Positions 24,726 to 33,194 of a stretch of 64,000 nt of DNA are shown here, one piece after another. A program made the translations under genes and the position numbers. Each line of letters starts with the position of its first letter. The first letter of the stretch is position 1. Origin of the DNA: a virus. The notes under the pieces are model-generated. The model was not told the DNA's origin, did no database searches, and saw only the letters and a program-made list of their open reading frames with translations. The stretch covers positions 20,569 through 84,568 of the IMG/VR virus record IMGVR_UViG_3300033146_000244. The stretch is one strand, 5' to 3'.

Positions 24726-25565
24726 CTATCTGTTGTATGCTTCTTTAATGCTTTTCTTGTATATTCTAGCACCTTTGCTAGGATACTTCGTATCTGTCAT
24801 ATACCCACATAATTGTAAATTTGTAAGTGCTTCTGACCATGAATAAGCATTGATAACACGACTATAACGTAATGTGCCTATACTATACAGCCAGGTCTCG
24901 TTTGGTTTACGAGACCATGCTTTTATAAGTATATTCCCATCGTTACTACTACTTGGTGCATATTTGGTTGTGCCAATTATCTTCAACCAGTTCTCCACTG
25001 ACTCCTCGTAAGAATCAAATACTGCAAAGTAGCTTTTAACTACCGTCCTCTTACCGTCTTCTTCTTCCCAAGTTCTGTATTTAGATTTTCTTTGTCCTTT
25101 GCGAGCTTTCATGCCAAAGATATTATAATTCTTTGCTATCGGTGAGTGCATTACATACCAATACCCATCATCGTTTTTACCCGATGATTCTGTTATAGCC
25201 AGTATGTTTAGTAATATAGCTAAATCCTCCTTAGGCATATTATTAAACAGTGTATCCTTAGCAATAATGGGCATTATAAACTCTTTGAAATCCATAGAGA
25301 ACTCTTCCCTAGTACCTTTCTTAGTTGTATAGCTTCTTAGAGTACTTTCGCTTGTGCTAGCACCAGTATTAACTTCTATTTTATTATCATCTTTTTTAAA
25401 TGGTACTCTCGTAGATAGTAACATTACTGTTAGTATGAATATGCTACTTATGGTACGGTATCTCTCTATTTTATGACCATGCTGTTTAACTAGTTTTATT
25501 ATTTTAATAAGTATTTTACTTATACCCGTTCTTTTCCTCTTGTTGAAATCAATTGATATTTTCAT
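24726..25565 (-). CDS. Membrane-anchored GH73 glucosaminidase/muramidase (FlgJ-like)
   Basis: LAITESSG, YNIFGMKA, TWE...F...DSYEES, GYMTDTKY; TM segment near the N-terminus. Confidence 0.85.
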   Translation of the reverse strand: MKISIDFNKRKRTGISKILIKIIKLVKQHGHKIERYRTISSIFILTVMLLSTRVPFKKDDNKIEVNTGASTSESTLRSYTTKKGTREEFSMDFKEFIMPIIAKDTLFNNMPKEDLAILLNILAITESSGKNDDGYWYVMHSPIAKNYNIFGMKARKGQRKSKYRTWEEEDGKRTVVKSYFAVFDSYEESVENWLKIIGTTKYAPSSSNDGNILIKAWSRKPNETWLYSIGTLRYSRVINAYSWSEALTNLQLCGYMTDTKYPSKGARIYKKSIKEAYNR

Positions 25566-26303: not shown

Positions 26304-27344
26304 TTATCTTAAACCAGTGAGCCTATTAAACATTGTTTTGTTTATAAGTGCAGCTGGTTTAACTGTTATTCTTTTAGTATAGTAACTTACATTCTTTATC
26401 ACTTCCACATCATTATTTTGCGTATTGATACCATGTAGCACACTCCTATTTTTATAACACTTGTTACTTTGTTCTTTTCGTATATTGTTAGAGTGGTTAC
26501 TATGTAACCTGTTATGATACATACGTTCTAACCTATCATGTTTCTCTATTAACTTAGTCAGTTTATCATCTAAGTAGTCTTGGTAGAACTTAGGTAATGC
26601 ACGTCTTAATACATTATTAGTTTCTACCCCAGCACTGCAATCACAGACAAATGTATCGCCTGCATACTTCTTTATCTGTGCTTCTAAATCCTTTATAACC
26701 CAATATGCCTTTGTATTACTACTTTTTTTATTACCCTTACTAACTAACTCAGATACCTTAGTTGTTATACCATTATTTAGGTAGTATTCATCACGTCGCA
26801 TATATAAATTTGCTACTTGTAACGCACCACTTGACGATACATACTCGTTATTCACGTTCTTTCTATTTATACCCCAGTTGGTTATTATGTCTAGTTCTTG
26901 TCTGTCTTTAATTACTCTTTTTATTTTATAAACCATTTGATTATAGTTTATTTCTTTTTTACTACGTAGCATCTGTCCCATAAATTTGAATGCCTTGTTG
27001 AAGTTATTAGTATTACTGTACCATCTATCATAGCCTACTATCTTTTTGTTCTCCTTATCTACTATTCTATTTAAGTAGTCGTCTTCTCCCGTATGTTCAA
27101 CTACATACTCATCATCGTATTGCCCAAAGTCTCCCTCTATTGCAAAAAATTCCTCTGCATTTATTATGTTTCTTTCAATTCTGCTATCGTATTGACAGTC
27201 CTTAGTAGAATATATAGGAGTATTACCATAAATAGGGTCTAACTCCTGCTCTACTGCTTCTTCAAATCTATCTTCGTAGTTACTTACTACTCTGGTCTCT
27301 ACTACCCAGTTGTCTTTGTTTATTTTGTTTATATCTATTTTCAT
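26304..27344 (-). CDS. Hypothetical protein
   Basis: Likely start MKIDINK at 27344; the longer start at 27422 runs through the tRNA-like element. Confidence 0.65.
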   Translation of the reverse strand: MKIDINKINKDNWVVETRVVSNYEDRFEEAVEQELDPIYGNTPIYSTKDCQYDSRIERNIINAEEFFAIEGDFGQYDDEYVVEHTGEDDYLNRIVDKENKKIVGYDRWYSNTNNFNKAFKFMGQMLRSKKEINYNQMVYKIKRVIKDRQELDIITNWGINRKNVNNEYVSSSGALQVANLYMRRDEYYLNNGITTKVSELVSKGNKKSSNTKAYWVIKDLEAQIKKYAGDTFVCDCSAGVETNNVLRRALPKFYQDYLDDKLTKLIEKHDRLERMYHNRLHSNHSNNIRKEQSNKCYKNRSVLHGINTQNNDVEVIKNVSYYTKRITVKPAALINKTMFNRLTGLR

Positions 27345-27376
27345 AATGTTACACCTGTTTAATTGGTTAATAATTG

Positions 27377-27445
27377 CAATACAGGTGGGACTTGAACCCA
27401 CATAACTACCGTAGTAGTGCACTATCCTATTTGTGCTACTGTACC
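27377..27445 (-). ncRNA. tRNA-like RNA lacking an anticodon (anticodon loop replaced by C(UACG)G tetraloop)
   Basis: GGTACAG TA GCAC AAATAGGATA GTGC ACTAC TACG GTAGT TAT GTGGG TTCAAGT CCCAC CTGTATT G: 7-bp acceptor stem, U8A9, D-loop GG, canonical T arm. Confidence 0.85.
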
Positions 27446-27460
27446 ATTGATAATTAGTTA

Positions 27461-27850
27461 TTAATTATCAAGCTCTTTAAGCTGTTTTTCAAGCTCTTCT
27501 ACTGTTAATCTTTCTCTTGCTTTTTTTCTTGCATTATACAACTCTTCTACAAGTTCTGCTCTTCTATCTGCTTTATTTTGTTTTATATCATTCTCCTCTA
27601 TTAACACCTCTCTGTACTCAACCAGTTCTCTAACTACTCCTATTTTAAAGGTAAGTTCTTTTACCTTGCTACTAACTTCTCTTTTTTTAGCAAAGAAGCT
27701 ACCCGACTCTCCAAAAGTAGCTAACTCTCTTTCTAAGCCAAGTCCGTAACTTAGTAAGAACCTTGTGGTCATGTTATTTAATTGACTTACATTTAATACT
27801 CCTTTTGATGTACTGAATGATACATTCTTTAATACTGCTTTCTTAATCAT
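27461..27850 (-). CDS. Coiled-coil hypothetical protein
   Basis: 129-aa ORF with FSTSKG.L.V.QL N-terminus, downstream of the 722-aa gene. Confidence 0.65.
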   Translation of the reverse strand: MIKKAVLKNVSFSTSKGVLNVSQLNNMTTRFLLSYGLGLERELATFGESGSFFAKKREVSSKVKELTFKIGVVRELVEYREVLIEENDIKQNKADRRAELVEELYNARKKARERLTVEELEKQLKELDN

Positions 27851-27881
27851 TTTTATTTGTTTTTAATGGTTTGTAGTGTTA

Positions 27882-30050
27882 TTAAAATCTAACTCTAAGT
27901 AGTCTTGTATGGCTACCTTGTACTTTTATCACTACAGAATCTTCTATCGTAGTGTTAAAGCCTATACCTGCTAATGGCTCGTTCACGTCACTTACTGGTA
28001 TTTGTACCTGTTTTGTAAGTAGTCCTAGTGGTTTTCTTATTTCCATAAGGTCACTTCTAAGATTCTCTACATGGAAGCCTTTTAATGAGTTCTCTACCTT
28101 TACATTGTCTAAAATAAATAAAGCATGTTTGTTACCTACGCTGTTATCTTCCCAATGATTAGGGGTGTACGATACACATCTAACACCATGAAATTCATTT
28201 GTATCTAAATTCCATATTGTTTGTTGCTTGCAGTCTATAGTACTTTCCAAGTGGTCAATTATTGTAAATTTGTCTCCTTCCTTTATAAATGAAACCACGT
28301 CTATTATACTGCCATCACTAACAGCTTTATCGTATTTATAGTGTCTTATTTCTCCTGATAATTCCAATTCAAATTCAAAACCATTATTGTTATCACGTGT
28401 TTTGTAATTATGTACACACATAGTGTACTTACCATCATTCATACTATCTACTGTTTTATAAGTAATATTTTCAACGGCTTTATAGTTTACAAAGCTAGGA
28501 GTTAGTACATCTACATCTAATAAGCACCCATCTGATAAAGTAGTACCCTTATGTTCATAACACACCTTCGGTAGATTAGGTCTTACTAAGTGTACATCGT
28601 AATCACAGTTGTTCCTACCCTCTCCCCAAGACAGAGAACCTCTTATAACTGCTGCAATACTACCACCCAATTCCTTTACTCTTTCCGCTATTGCAGATAT
28701 GCCAGTAAGGTTGTTTCTAAATGTCCAACTAAATTTATTGTCCCAGCTAAACATGTTCTTAGCTGTCGCAACTGTCGGAGCAGTTATTGCCATAAACTTG
28801 TTAGCGTGTCTATGTTCTAATAATACTTGCATCTGTGTTGTTGTAGGTACTATCTCAGATAGGAAGTCTTCATAACTTATCTCTATAACACCTTTTAAAT
28901 CTAAGGTCTTACTTACTGCTGTTGGTTTTACCTTATCAAACAGTGTAATTGTTTTCTTTTTGTTAGATACGTGGTTTATAGCCGATAATGGCAAATCACT
29001 CATTGTAGCAATACGTCTTTCTAAGCTATCCATTAAACCCTTTTCAGTAATAATCTTCTCAGCTAGCTGTAATTGTTTCTTAGTTACAGGAGCTACTGCA
29101 TTCATGTAGTTTACAGGGTCTGCTATTTTGTTGTATTCGCTTACTATATCAGATAACGGGTATTCACCCTCTTCTATCTTCTTTAACGGTACTCCAATAC
29201 TTTTGTTAGCTAATGTAGCTGTAATAGTATTTTCTGTAATACCGACTTTCCAACAGTACAGTGTTCTTTGTTCTTTTGTTTTTAATGTATTGTACTGTTT
29301 TTTAAGTATTATAAATCTCTCTATGTTTGCTATAAACTTATCAGAGTTAATAAGTGACTTTTGATTAATTAAGTCTAGTGCTAACTCTAATGTGTCTATA
29401 CTAAGCAGTTTAAGTCCTTTCTCAAATACTTGTACAGTTGATACCTGTACTGAGTTGTATGCAGCCATAGAACCACTTATTATATAAGCGGCGGGTATGT
29501 CTAAGTAGAAATGATTATACTCCTTTGTATCACCTATCTTAAATAACTTGCTTGTAGGATGTTTCATTATATCCTCCTTCGTATACATTACTATGTTATT
29601 TTTTTTACCTACTCTGTAAGCACCTTTAATTTTCTTATACTGTAGTTCGTTCTTACCTCCTTTCTTTGTTGATGATAGGCTTTTTAGGTAGTCTATATCT
29701 TCTACAAACACACCTGATATTGGTAACGTCTTTATGTACTTATCCATCTTACTTGCTACTTCTCCGTATGTTCCATCTACACCATCTACTTTCCAAATAG
29801 TCTCTATTTCGTTATTGCCATTTATGGCTACGATGTTACCAAATTGACGTAACGTATGCTTACAAGCCATACAATTATGTTTGGTACTCTCTGGGTCTCT
29901 CCAAATTTTATCAGTACCTGTTGGGTATGACCTTAGATATTTCTTCCATGCCTGTTTTTTATTCATGTCCACTATGTACAAGTTTCCGTACTTAGAGCAT
30001 AGCTCATTGAATCTTTTATTTACTGCGTCTGCTAATATTTTAAATTGCAT
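27882..30050 (-). CDS. Large conserved phage protein with YfaP/DUF2135-like C-terminal domain
   Basis: HNCxxC N-terminal motif; SLSW...DYDVH...LDVD...VENI...VHNY; PNHW...GNKH. Confidence 0.7.
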   Translation of the reverse strand: MQFKILADAVNKRFNELCSKYGNLYIVDMNKKQAWKKYLRSYPTGTDKIWRDPESTKHNCMACKHTLRQFGNIVAINGNNEIETIWKVDGVDGTYGEVASKMDKYIKTLPISGVFVEDIDYLKSLSSTKKGGKNELQYKKIKGAYRVGKKNNIVMYTKEDIMKHPTSKLFKIGDTKEYNHFYLDIPAAYIISGSMAAYNSVQVSTVQVFEKGLKLLSIDTLELALDLINQKSLINSDKFIANIERFIILKKQYNTLKTKEQRTLYCWKVGITENTITATLANKSIGVPLKKIEEGEYPLSDIVSEYNKIADPVNYMNAVAPVTKKQLQLAEKIITEKGLMDSLERRIATMSDLPLSAINHVSNKKKTITLFDKVKPTAVSKTLDLKGVIEISYEDFLSEIVPTTTQMQVLLEHRHANKFMAITAPTVATAKNMFSWDNKFSWTFRNNLTGISAIAERVKELGGSIAAVIRGSLSWGEGRNNCDYDVHLVRPNLPKVCYEHKGTTLSDGCLLDVDVLTPSFVNYKAVENITYKTVDSMNDGKYTMCVHNYKTRDNNNGFEFELELSGEIRHYKYDKAVSDGSIIDVVSFIKEGDKFTIIDHLESTIDCKQQTIWNLDTNEFHGVRCVSYTPNHWEDNSVGNKHALFILDNVKVENSLKGFHVENLRSDLMEIRKPLGLLTKQVQIPVSDVNEPLAGIGFNTTIEDSVVIKVQGSHTRLLRVRF

Positions 30051-30323: not shown

Positions 30324-30683
30324 TTAGATGCTGCCTAGAAACTCTTTATAATCCCTAAGTGCCGTTTTAACTGTCTTTACTGGCACTTCACAACGTCCTA
30401 AGTACCTTTTGAGGTCTTTCTTATTCTGTGCGTACATTGCACCTTTGATTACATAACTTTCTAAGAGGAGAAAGCGTGTATTAACTACTACCGAATCCTC
30501 ACTCTTTATAGATGTCATCGGCATTATTATCAGTTGGTGCTTATCAGCGGACTCCTTGATAACAAGAGCTGGTCGTTTCTTCCCATGATACTCTGCAATT
30601 ACCACATCGCCTCGTTTAAACTCTGTTATAGCAATGCTGAGGTCGCTATACTGTTTGTTTTTATTTATTAGTTTTTTAGACAT
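30324..30683 (-). CDS. Orphan PemK/MazF-fold protein
   Basis: KRGDVV...GKKRPALVI...LIIMPMTS matches the MazF/PemK signature; 119 aa; no adjacent antitoxin ORF. Confidence 0.7.
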   Translation of the reverse strand: MSKKLINKNKQYSDLSIAITEFKRGDVVIAEYHGKKRPALVIKESADKHQLIIMPMTSIKSEDSVVVNTRFLLLESYVIKGAMYAQNKKDLKRYLGRCEVPVKTVKTALRDYKEFLGSI

Positions 30684-32579: not shown

Positions 32580-33194
32580 TTATTGTTGTTTGTATATGTG
32601 AATAAAAGTGTTGTAGTATTCTGGTGCTGTATAATAGCCACACGTCTTCATATCTTTAAAGAATTGTAGAGGTGTCTTTGATTCGTGTAAAATTTTGTAT
32701 CTATCTCTTTCAAAGAGATTATTAATTATGTAGCTTATAGCTTCGTGTTGATTATTAAAAGACATGAAGGATAGTTCCATAGGAGTTCTAACCCCATCGT
32801 AATACTCTACTGTGCTAATAGGGTCTTTACCTCCTTGTATTCCAAATGGGTTGTTTCTCTTGTTGTATAGGCTGTTGCTATAAGGGTGTCCTATGCTGTT
32901 GCTACTCTCAGAGACTGCAATTACTTGGATGCACCTTATTAGTTCTTCATTTGATAGTTTGTAACTCTTACTTGCCTTATTTATTATGTGTGAGAATAAA
33001 GGGTAAGTTATTCTCATAACCTCTCCTCTTTGTCTTCCTGTGTAAGAGTTATTCCTAAGAATAGCATCAACAGCTTTTAAATTAATGACTGTACTACTGC
33101 TTTGTATTACAGTTCGGCAAGTTACTTTAACCTCTTCTTTATTATTGCTACCACCTAACAGTAGTAGCAATGTAATTAATAGTGTGTGTTTCAT
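32580..33194 (-). CDS. Second GH73 glucosaminidase/muramidase, with signal peptide
   Basis: IAVSESS, NNPFGIQG, TVEY...F..F, GYYTAPEY; N-terminal MKHTLLITLLLLLG. Confidence 0.8.
   Translation of the reverse strand: MKHTLLITLLLLLGGSNNKEEVKVTCRTVIQSSSTVINLKAVDAILRNNSYTGRQRGEVMRITYPLFSHIINKASKSYKLSNEELIRCIQVIAVSESSNSIGHPYSNSLYNKRNNPFGIQGGKDPISTVEYYDGVRTPMELSFMSFNNQHEAISYIINNLFERDRYKILHESKTPLQFFKDMKTCGYYTAPEYYNTFIHIYKQQ

What the first reader, a model, noticed from the sequence alone, without database searches (positions are those of the whole stretch)
27377..27445. Anticodon-less tRNA mimic with a C(UACG)G tetraloop
Seen (minus strand): GGUACAG-UA-GCAC-AAAUAGGAUA-GUGC-ACUAC[UACG]GUAGU-UAU-GUGGG-UUCAAGU-CCCAC-CUGUAUU-G. 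The acceptor stem, U8/A9/A14, D-loop GG, G53-C61 and UUCRANY T-loop are all intact, so the tRNA elbow is preserved. Only 17 nt separate the D and T stems (22-23 in real tRNAs), and that arm is capped by an extra-stable UNCG tetraloop with the preferred C-G closing pair. No CCA is encoded. Random decay would be unlikely to keep every tertiary element while producing a perfect cUACGg loop. It is the only tRNA-like element I found. It lies between two early genes on the transcribed strand. Inference: either a non-decoding tRNA decoy that anticodon nucleases (PrrC/RloC/PARIS-type defences) or other tRNA-binding factors can bind but not cleave, or an RNase P/RNase Z processing signal (mascRNA-like) that cuts the early polycistronic mRNA ~30 nt before the next start codon.
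Basis: partly seen in the sequence, partly recalled or inferred. Interest (0 to 1): 0.87.

Follow-up and report, generated by a model that had tools for sequence, protein, structure and literature searches.

The report
Anticodon-less tRNA look-alike in vent phage
An uncultured hydrothermal-vent phage carries one tRNA-shaped gene whose codon-reading loop is replaced by a very stable four-base cap, so it cannot decode; it sits where distant relatives keep a normal tRNA, and whether it is kept for another job or is a freshly broken tRNA cannot yet be settled.

Summary
Window 27377-27445 (minus strand) is a full-length tRNA body: Rfam tRNA scores 43.6 bits against a cut-off of 29, and my own phage-tRNA model scores 45.1 bits. 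The anticodon arm is cut to 4 bp plus a UACG loop closed by C-G, 5 nt shorter than normal. ARAGORN does not call it. It is the only tRNA-like gene in the 84.6-kb record.

Independent assemblies from three runs of two samples reproduce it without indels, so it is not an assembly deletion.

It lies 15 nt after a conserved gene pair (a ~700-aa PF26675 protein and a ~125-aa helical protein). In 20 of 69 very distant relatives this slot holds a tRNA, mostly a normal tRNA-Gln. No close relative exists in any collection searched, so conservation of this element cannot be tested.

Indirect evidence leans towards selection:
- Simulated single 5-nt deletions give a cUNCGg cap in only 0.15% of cases.
- The body carries the arginine-tRNA mark A20, and from a tRNA-Arg(ACG) arm two flanking deletions would be needed.
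- Conserved short-arm tRNA look-alike families exist in other viral contigs.

My odds are about 0.55 for a retained non-decoding, RNase P/Z-processed RNA and about 0.3 for a recent pseudogene. This scan has noted similar elements on other DNA.

The parts
27377..27445 (-). tRNA-shaped element, G1 (27445) to discriminator G73 (27377); C74 is at 27376
   Evidence: Rfam tRNA 43.6 bits, model positions 1-71 of 71. Own model R1 45.1 bits. Cloverleaf is the minimum-free-energy fold.
27405..27418 (-). Sealed anticodon arm A-CUAC-UACG-GUAG-U. The tetraloop UACG is at 27410-27413 and the closing pair is C27414-G27409.
   Evidence: Sequence. The Rfam alignment shows 4 nt where the model has 9.
27419..27436 (-). 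D arm GCAC-AAAUAGGAUA-GUGC with G18 G19 A20
   Evidence: Sequence. A20 was found in 79 of 105 tRNA-Arg and in 75 of about 1,100 class I tRNAs of other isotypes.
27385..27401 (-). T arm GUGGG-UUCAAGU-CCCAC
   Evidence: Sequence and Rfam alignment.
27464..27492 (-). Sigma-70-like promoter match TTGAAA-17-GATAAT, ending 19 nt before the element
   Evidence: It matches 10 of 12 positions, but the number of such sites in the region is at chance level, so this is only a candidate.
27461..27850 (-). Upstream gene, 129 aa, helical, member of the ~123-aa family that follows PF26675 genes
   Evidence: phrog_2018 E 3e-10. A local HMM of 69 syntenic ORFs gives E 5e-12. AlphaFold2 pLDDT 84 with no informative fold match.
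27882..30050 (-). Upstream gene, 722 aa, PF26675 / phrog_1735, function unknown
   Evidence: AlphaFold2 pLDDT 78, with only weak TerD-like beta-sandwich matches.
26304..27344 (-). Downstream gene, 346 aa, no family. Its Shine-Dalgarno sequence AGGUG is at 27352-27356 and its ATG at 27342-27344, 32 nt after G73.

Best explanation
This is a tRNA-derived gene, most likely from a tRNA-Arg(ACG)-type ancestor. It occupies the conserved tRNA slot behind the PF26675 / small-helical-protein gene pair. Its anticodon stem-loop has been remodelled into a 4-bp stem sealed by an extra-stable cUACGg tetraloop, so it cannot read codons.

Shown: the tRNA body is complete. That includes the acceptor/T-arm stack, the D-loop/T-loop elbow nucleotides and a possible A15:U48 pair. 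The element is real DNA in the phage population, and it sits in a tRNA slot.

Inferred: it is transcribed with the replication-module genes or from the promoter-like site just upstream. It folds into the L shape. RNase P cuts before G1 (the preceding base is U). A 3' nuclease cuts after G73, whose trailer C-A-A is the commonest one among the tRNA genes of the PF26675-bearing phage loci compared here. The host CCA-adding enzyme then completes the end. This separates the upstream and downstream cistrons and releases a stable RNA of about 70 nt that is probably uncharged. I read it as kept by selection for this tRNA-shaped, non-decoding role. The role could be a cis processing signal, possibly with a further trans role as a tRNA(Arg) look-alike.
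For: - The body is intact and scores well above the tRNA family cut-off. All 20 stem pairs form.
- It is not an artefact: independent contigs from two samples show no indels.
- Slot homology: p129 is an orthologue of the small gene that follows PF26675 genes. Twenty of 69 loci carry a tRNA 7-44 nt after that gene's stop; here the distance is 15 nt.
- The 3' trailer G73-CAA matches the group's habit: CAA, CTA or CTT in 80 of 100 genes, CCA in 6.
- A cUNCGg cap is rare by chance. Of 6,810 simulated in-window 5-nt deletions of 1,362 real tRNAs, 0.15% give cUNCGg and 0.9% give any UNCG or GNRA loop.
- Arg ancestry: the D loop is GGAUAG with A20, found in 79 of 105 tRNA-Arg against 75 of about 1,100 class I tRNAs of other isotypes. 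CUACGG equals positions 32-37 of tRNA-Arg(ACG) loops (L486). From such an arm no single deletion gives the present sequence; two flanking deletions are needed, which points to directed remodelling.
- Both acceptor-end changes are pair-preserving wobbles. The double wobble occurs in 1 of 132 and 3 of 150 phage tRNA hits.
- Short-arm tRNA look-alikes can be kept by selection elsewhere. A 6-contig family shows 99.2% of cells paired and 3 compensatory pairs. A family of at least 16 contigs keeps the body while the short arm varies.
- RNase P, RNase Z and the CCA-adding enzyme need only the acceptor/T-arm half and the elbow. This is established knowledge, not tested here.
Against: - No homologue of this element was found anywhere. 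The nearest relative of the neighbouring protein is 37% identical. Conservation, covariation and age are therefore untestable.
- The slot in distant relatives holds normal tRNAs, and none of them is tetraloop-capped.
- Other closed-arm examples near PF26675 genes are singletons in their lineages and make up about 1% of hits in tRNA arrays. That is compatible with sporadic decay.
- The 4 bp + 4 nt geometry is what a single 5-nt deletion produces.
- Every cUNCGg reads as an Arg NCG loop, so only A20 is independent support for Arg ancestry. L277, another cUNCGg case, lacks A20.
- Strain SNPs say nothing: 0 in the element, but also 0 in the adjacent 390-nt ORF.
- With about 250,000 windows scanned, a rare chance product could surface.
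Confidence: 0.55

Rival explanations
1. It is a recently inactivated tRNA gene, a neutral pseudogene. One small deletion in the anticodon loop of the phage's only tRNA gene destroyed decoding. The body still looks perfect only because too little time has passed, and the UACG cap and A20 are coincidences.
For: - Any contiguous 5-nt deletion within positions 31-39 leaves exactly 4 bp + 4 nt (reasoning; simulation set-up).
- Relatives have normal tRNAs in the slot.
- Short or armless tRNA-like singletons occur sporadically in related phages: L205:17945-18014, L010:10547-10616, L059:2853-2925 and L197:718-777. None has a homologue in my set.
- They are about 1% of hits in tRNA arrays.
- The weak acceptor end (two G.U pairs) could be early drift.
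Against: - Only 0.15% of simulated deletions give cUNCGg and 0.29% give UACG.
- A20 occurs in about 7% of non-Arg tRNAs.
- If the ancestor was tRNA-Arg(ACG), two separate indels are needed while no other damage occurred.
- Both acceptor changes preserve pairing.
- In an unbiased sample of short-arm elements, 2 of about 12 four-base loops are UNCG or GNRA, against 0.9% expected under this model.
Confidence: 0.3
2. It is a trans-acting decoy or sponge. The processed RNA titrates a host tRNA-binding factor. Because it keeps A20 and the U33-A34-C35-G36 letters, the target could be specific for tRNA-Arg, for example a colicin-D-type tRNA-Arg nuclease, ArgRS or TadA. The target could also be an enzyme that reads only the elbow or acceptor end.
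For: - tRNA-Arg marks in the body.
- tRNA genes within 5 kb of PF26675 genes have non-7-nt anticodon loops far more often than control phage tRNAs: 29 of 100 against 3 of 150.
- A weak MazF/PemK-like RNase gene lies 3 kb upstream.
Against: - Anticodon nucleases such as PrrC, RloC and PARIS AriB recognise the open anticodon loop, which is absent. In a UNCG fold the bases are not presented as in a tRNA loop, and the arm is one pair shorter (established knowledge).
- No partner gene was identified. There is no TROVE/Ro and no PTH2, and the neighbouring proteins gave no informative fold.
- No expression data.
Confidence: 0.12
3. It is an assembly or sequencing artefact, or a phage attachment site (attP) copying part of a host tRNA gene.
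For: tRNA genes are common integration sites (general knowledge).
Against: - Three runs from two samples reproduce the sequence with no gaps.
- There is no tyrosine integrase in the 85%-complete record.
- The element is a whole cloverleaf rather than a 3' fragment.
- The genome has a lytic-type replication module.
Confidence: 0.02

Closest known systems
Canonical elongator tRNA (Rfam RF00005), especially bacterial or phage tRNA-Arg(ACG)
   Same: It has the full cloverleaf body, U8, A14, G18 G19, the T loop UUCAAGU and G53-C61. It also has A20 and the letters CUACGG as in tRNA-Arg(ACG) loops. It scores above the family's gathering score, and it sits in a tRNA gene slot with the group's typical 3' trailer.
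   Different: There is no 7-nt anticodon loop. The arm is 12 nt (4 bp + UACG) instead of 17. ARAGORN does not call it, and it cannot decode.
mascRNA / MEN-beta tRNA-like RNAs of vertebrate MALAT1 and NEAT1 (from my own knowledge; not read here)
   Same: Both are tRNA-shaped and non-decoding with a reduced anticodon arm. The proposed mode is the same: RNase P and RNase Z cut it out of a longer transcript and CCA is added.
   Different: mascRNA is eukaryotic and nuclear and lies at the 3' end of a long non-coding RNA. It is not homologous. Processing has not been shown for the phage element.
YrlA / bacterial Y RNA tRNA-like module (PMC4201824)
   Same: It is a bacterial or phage RNA that mimics the tRNA acceptor, D and T arms without an anticodon.
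   Different: YrlA has a long Ro-binding stem and lies next to rsr (TROVE). Here there is no TROVE gene and no extra stem, only a 69-nt cloverleaf.
Short-arm tRNA look-alike families in IMG/VR contigs found here (A8, A9), and the anticodon-less mimics noted earlier by this scan
   Same: They have a tRNA body with a shortened, non-decoding middle arm, in phage genomes.
   Different: Those are conserved across several contigs or reported behind PTH2-like genes. This one is a singleton, has no PTH2 neighbour and shows no sequence relation to them.
tmRNA tRNA-like domain
   Same: An acceptor/T-arm tRNA mimic processed by RNase P, without an anticodon.
   Different: tmRNA carries G3:U70, a reduced D arm and a large mRNA-like domain. 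None of these is present here.

Membership tests
tRNA (Rfam RF00005) | Score at or above the curated gathering score, over the full model | tested here: met
   43.6 bits against 29, model positions 1-71 of 71
tRNA (Rfam RF00005) | Cloverleaf with a 7-bp acceptor, 4-bp D stem and 5-bp T stem, plus the conserved tertiary nucleotides (U8, A14, G18, G19, U54 U55 C56, A58, G53-C61) | tested here: met
   Sequence and fold
tRNA (Rfam RF00005) | A 5-bp anticodon stem with a 7-nt loop carrying U33 and an anticodon | tested here: not met
   4 bp + UACG. Four nt stand where the model has nine. ARAGORN makes no call.
tRNA (Rfam RF00005) | Aminoacylation and use on the ribosome | not testable with these tools
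   No G3:U70, no long variable arm and no G-1, so no known anticodon-independent identity set is present (sequence; established identity rules)
tRNA-Arg lineage | A20 in the D loop | tested here: met
   The D loop is GGAUAG. A20 is present in 79 of 105 tRNA-Arg and in 75 of about 1,100 class I tRNAs of other isotypes.
tRNA-Arg lineage | C35 and G36 presented in an open anticodon loop | tested here: not met
   The letters are present but locked in a cUACGg tetraloop
RNase P/Z-processed tRNA-like RNA (mascRNA type) | Discrete processed ends at +1 and after the discriminator, with CCA added | not testable with these tools
   No RNA run holds the sequence. The anatomy is compatible: U-1, G1, a 12-bp acceptor/T stack and an intact elbow.
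YrlA / Y RNA | A neighbouring Ro60 (TROVE) gene and a Ro-binding stem | tested here: not met
   No TROVE match in the record and no extra stem in the 69-nt element
Anticodon-less mimics behind phage PTH2 (earlier notes of this scan) | Position directly downstream of a peptidyl-tRNA-hydrolase-like gene | tested here: not met
   No PF01981 match in the record. The cassette was also not seen at the PTH2 genes of 48 related records.
tRNA pseudogene | Loss of an essential part, with further decay of the body or absence of constraint in relatives | tested here: inconclusive
   The anticodon is lost but the body shows no decay. No close relatives exist to measure constraint.

The most novel reading that the evidence does not exclude
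The element is a purpose-built, non-decoding tRNA(Arg) look-alike. A phage tRNA-Arg(ACG) gene was remodelled by two flanking deletions so that its own anticodon letters (C32-U33-A34-C35-G36-G37) snap shut into a cUACGg tetraloop. This gives a nuclease-proof tRNA-shaped RNA that still passes through RNase P, RNase Z and CCA addition. It would serve as a transcript punctuation mark, a sponge for a tRNA-Arg-specific host factor, or both. It would be one member of a large, undescribed class of phage tRNA look-alikes with sealed or shortened anticodon arms.
Probability: 0.3. Interest if true: 0.8.

Novelty: new variant of a known kind. Interest (0 to 1): 0.55.

Why it matters
Phage tRNA genes are usually explained by codon supply or by escape from tRNA-cutting defences. 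A tRNA body kept without any anticodon would show a third use of the tRNA shape in phages, as a processing signal or a protein decoy. It would also mean that tRNA finders systematically miss a class of phage RNA genes: one truncated pattern scan here returned more than 60 short-arm tRNA-derived elements. The observation that every cUNCGg tetraloop spells a tRNA-Arg anticodon loop suggests a simple evolutionary route from a decoding tRNA to a sealed mimic, and that route can be tested at the bench. If the element is only a fresh pseudogene, it is ordinary.

Tried and rejected
Searches for homologues of the element all came back empty:
- blastn of the 2-kb region and of the element against 50,697 phage records found nothing beyond generic T-arm matches.
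- Exact or degenerate arm patterns gave 0 matches in viral contigs.
- The same arm pattern in metagenome contigs gave 2 canonical tRNAs only.
- A body pattern in viral and genome contigs gave 108 matches, all with canonical spacing.
- Local blast against 2.3 Mb of fetched loci gave nothing.

Searches for close relatives of the phage also failed:
- A single-protein locus search found none.
- A search of 5.8 billion proteins gave at most 37% identity.

Other lines that led nowhere:
- Expression: no RNA holder is listed for this DNA.
- Strain SNPs: none fall in the element, but the test has no power.
- The pattern CTACGG + T arm in viral contigs mostly returned the variable arms of class II tRNAs, so it was a dead end.
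- The PTH2 cassette from earlier notes is absent here and was not reproduced in 48 related records.
- TROVE/Ro and tyrosine integrase are absent.
- Function of the neighbours: Pfam, PHROGs, NCBIfam, PDB sequence search and AlphaFold2 with Foldseek gave nothing informative for the 722-aa protein (only weak TerD-like matches) or the 129-aa protein.
- The body's nearest neighbours do not fix the isotype.
- L277, a second cUNCGg case, lacks A20, so a general Arg-to-sealed route is not shown.
- The literature searches found no description of anticodon-less tetraloop tRNA look-alikes in phages.

Full report
**What is there**

Its parts, in order:
- acceptor stem GGUACAG/CUGUAUU, in which the first two pairs are G.U
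- U8 A9
- D arm GCAC-AAAUAGGAUA-GUGC
- A26
- arm CUAC-UACG-GUAG
- variable region UUAU
- T arm GUGGG-UUCAAGU-CCCAC
- discriminator G73, followed by C-A-A

Rfam's tRNA model matches it end to end at 43.6 bits, against a gathering score of 29. The alignment shows 4 nt where the model has the last stem pair plus the 7-nt anticodon loop. A covariance model that I built from 47 tRNAs of other phages, not including this element, scores it at 45.1 bits with E 6e-9. The minimum-free-energy fold is the cloverleaf with the tetraloop. ARAGORN, which requires an anticodon loop, reports nothing in the window. The whole 84,568-base IMG/VR record has this one tRNA-model match only.

**It is not an artefact**

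The DNA comes from a hydrothermal-vent metagenome study. Logan contigs of two runs from two samples each span the element with no differences and no indels: X1 record 2 covers 27244-27797 and X3 record 12 covers 27316-27466. A third run, X2 (same sample as X1), covers all but its first base, where two of its contigs abut. Strain SNPs cluster in the downstream ORF. None lies in 27316-27850, so they carry no information on constraint. No RNA run holds the sequence.

**Context**

The minus-strand module encodes ribonucleotide reductase, primase, helicase, ligase, Sak4, DNA polymerase A and similar functions.

Directly upstream are two genes. One is a 722-aa protein (PF26675 / phrog_1735, function unknown; AlphaFold2 gives only a weak TerD-like beta-sandwich). 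The other is a 129-aa helical protein (phrog_2018; no fold match). The element starts 15 nt after the small gene's stop. It ends 32 nt before the ATG of a 346-aa ORF that has its own AGGUG ribosome-binding site. A promoter-like site (TTGAAA-17-GATAAT) ends 19 nt upstream, but such sites occur at chance frequency in this region.

The record has no PTH2, TROVE or tyrosine-integrase gene.

**A conserved tRNA slot**

The 722-aa protein has thousands of relatives in large phages, but none is closer than 37% identity. In 80 viral loci carrying it, 67 of 69 testable loci also have the ~123-aa gene right after it, and the window's 129-aa protein matches their HMM at E 5e-12.

- Twenty of the 69 loci have a tRNA or tRNA-like gene 7-44 nt after the small gene. 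Fifteen of these begin with a normal tRNA-Gln (UUG or CUG).
- Nine loci have a tRNA-like gene between the two protein genes.

The element therefore occupies a positionally homologous tRNA slot. Its sequence is not specifically Gln-like. Its 3' trailer (C74 then A/U, not CCA) is the commonest one in the tRNA genes of these PF26675-bearing loci: CAA, CTA or CTT in 80 of 100 genes, and CCA in 6.

**No homologue, so no direct test of selection**

BLAST, exact-pattern scans of the viral, metagenome and genome collections, and local searches found no second copy of this design with this body. That is literally what the distant relatives show. At 37% protein identity or less, they cannot tell a recent loss from an old, maintained state.

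**How special is the cap?**

Any contiguous 5-nt deletion within positions 31-39 of a tRNA leaves 4 bp + 4 nt, so the geometry is not evidence of design. The loop sequence is.

I simulated all five such deletions in 1,362 real tRNAs, giving 6,810 products:

| Product | Share of products |
|---|---|
| cUNCGg | 0.15% |
| UACG | 0.29% |
| any UNCG or GNRA | 0.9% |

A scan that is unbiased with respect to loop type used TAGCTCA...GGTTCRANTCC at a spacing 2-12 nt below the canonical 35-40 nt. Of 80 loci, 64-65 held tRNA-derived elements with intact acceptor and T stems but a middle region of only 13-20 nt. Among about 12 with four-base loops, two are UNCG or GNRA (L277 cUCCGg, L285 GCAA). That is more than the neutral model predicts, though the numbers are small.

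**Likely ancestry**

The D loop GGAUAG carries A20, the arginine identity mark. The best D-arm matches are tRNA-Arg.

The string C-UACG-G equals C32-U33-A34-C35-G36-G37 of the common tRNA-Arg(ACG) loop CUACGGA. One of the only two metagenome matches to the arm pattern is a canonical tRNA-Arg(ACG) with stem CUACG/CGUAG.

A caution applies. Every cUNCGg spells an Arg NCG anticodon loop, so only A20 is independent evidence.

If the ancestor was tRNA-Arg(ACG), no single deletion yields CUAC-UACG-GUAG. Two flanking deletions (31-32 and 37-39) are required, with no other damage to the body. That is hard to reconcile with neutral decay. The two terminal acceptor pairs are G.U, a combination seen in 1 of 132 and 3 of 150 phage tRNA hits. 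Both changes preserve pairing.

**Class-level context**

- Within 5 kb of PF26675 genes, 29 of the 100 best tRNA-model hits have anticodon loops that are not 7 nt (5-14 nt and longer). The figure is 3 of 150 in tRNA-rich control contigs. At equal score (58 bits or more) it is about 17 of 79 against 3 of 150.
- Closed or missing arms also occur there: L205:17945-18014 (4 bp + CAAG, 65.7 bits, at the head of a tRNA array), L010:10547-10616, L059:2853-2925 and L197:718-777. Each is a singleton, and such forms are about 1% of array hits.
- Elsewhere in IMG/VR, short-arm look-alikes form conserved families. One, in six contigs, has 99.2% of cells paired and three compensatory pairs. Another, in at least 16 contigs, keeps the body while the short arm varies.

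Such RNAs can therefore be maintained by selection. That is not shown for this one.

**Mechanism and verdict**

The element keeps what RNase P, RNase Z and the CCA-adding enzyme need: U-1/G1, the 12-bp acceptor/T stack and the elbow. It lacks what decoding needs, and it lacks what anticodon nucleases recognise.

The best-supported reading is a retained, non-decoding tRNA-shaped RNA that is excised from the replication-module transcript. It would act as a punctuation signal and possibly as a tRNA(Arg) look-alike in trans (confidence about 0.55). The main rival is a fresh pseudogene (about 0.3). A dedicated decoy role has about 0.12. An artefact or attP origin is essentially excluded.

I found no paper describing anticodon-less tetraloop tRNA look-alikes in phages. 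The nearest described things are YrlA, tmRNA's tRNA-like domain and mascRNA. This scan has noted similar elements on other DNA. I treated those notes as leads, and their PTH2 association does not apply here.

Noticed in passing
L002-L081 (loci around PF26675 genes); window 27461-30050: A conserved three-part module occurs in many large phages: a ~700-aa PF26675 gene, then a ~123-aa helical protein gene (67 of 69 loci), then in 20 of 69 loci a tRNA gene 7-44 nt after the stop, usually tRNA-Gln(UUG). Both proteins are of unknown function.
   Followed up: partly
L002-L081 against control loci L082-L161: tRNA-model hits within 5 kb of PF26675 genes have non-7-nt anticodon loops in 29 of 100 cases (5-14 nt and longer), against 3 of 150 in tRNA-rich control viral contigs. 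The bodies score as good tRNAs.
   Followed up: partly
L007:7074-7153, L015:5857-5933, L017:6941-7016, L023:7125-7204, L025:7284-7359, L027:6202-6276, L060:3605-3683: tRNA-like genes lying between the PF26675 gene and the small gene nearly all (7 of 9) have expanded anticodon loops of 8-13 nt, often containing CCAU or ending in ACAU/ACAA. This may be a distinct class.
   Followed up: no
A4 hits in L002-L081; window 27374-27377: tRNA genes of these PF26675-bearing loci encode C74 followed by A or U (CAA, CTA or CTT in 80 of 100) rather than CCA (6 of 100). Control phage tRNAs encode CCA in 64 of 150.
   Followed up: no
L205:17945-18014 (= L191:220-289): A second tRNA-like gene has the same geometry (4-bp arm + 4-nt loop CAAG, 70 nt, 65.7 bits). 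It lies at the head of a tRNA array (Arg, Met, Arg, Arg, Arg) in a PF26675-bearing phage contig, and ARAGORN does not see it.
   Followed up: partly
L197:718-777: A 60-nt tRNA-like sequence has acceptor, D and T arms but only 8 nt where the anticodon arm should be.
   Followed up: no
L251, L254, L256, L264, L288, L292 (alignment A8): A 70-nt tRNA look-alike family in six viral contigs has a short arm (2 bp, bulge, 2 bp, 5-nt loop) and compensatory changes in the acceptor and T stems.
   Followed up: partly
L227, L228, L231, L232, L238, L240, L253, L258, L259, L262, L263, L268, L270, L283, L290, L297 (alignment A9): A family of 68-70-nt tRNA look-alikes (body TGGAATGTAGCTCAG...) occurs in at least 16 contigs of about 40 kb. 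The body is conserved, while the short middle arm is hypervariable, with A-rich 5-nt loops (UAAAC, ACAAA, GUAAA).
   Followed up: partly
L037:4880-4963: An 84-nt tRNA-like RNA has a hairpin inserted in the D loop, a UUAU-capped 5-bp arm and a non-standard T loop. Its fold z-score is -4.55.
   Followed up: no
window 30324-30683 (-): A 119-aa ORF gives weak MazF/PemK-like matches (Pfam E 3.6e-4, below the cut-off; PHROG 'MazF-like growth inhibitor' E 9e-4). It is flanked by non-coding gaps of about 270 nt and lies 3 kb upstream of the element.
   Followed up: no
window 26800-27344: Twelve strain SNPs between vent samples cluster in the first 545 nt laid of the downstream 346-aa ORF. None lies in 27316-27850 and one lies in 27851-28400. 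This suggests a mosaic or fast-evolving gene.
   Followed up: no
window 24726-25565 and 32580-33194 (-): Two ORFs with glucosaminidase/endolysin-like domains lie inside the replication-side module.
   Followed up: no
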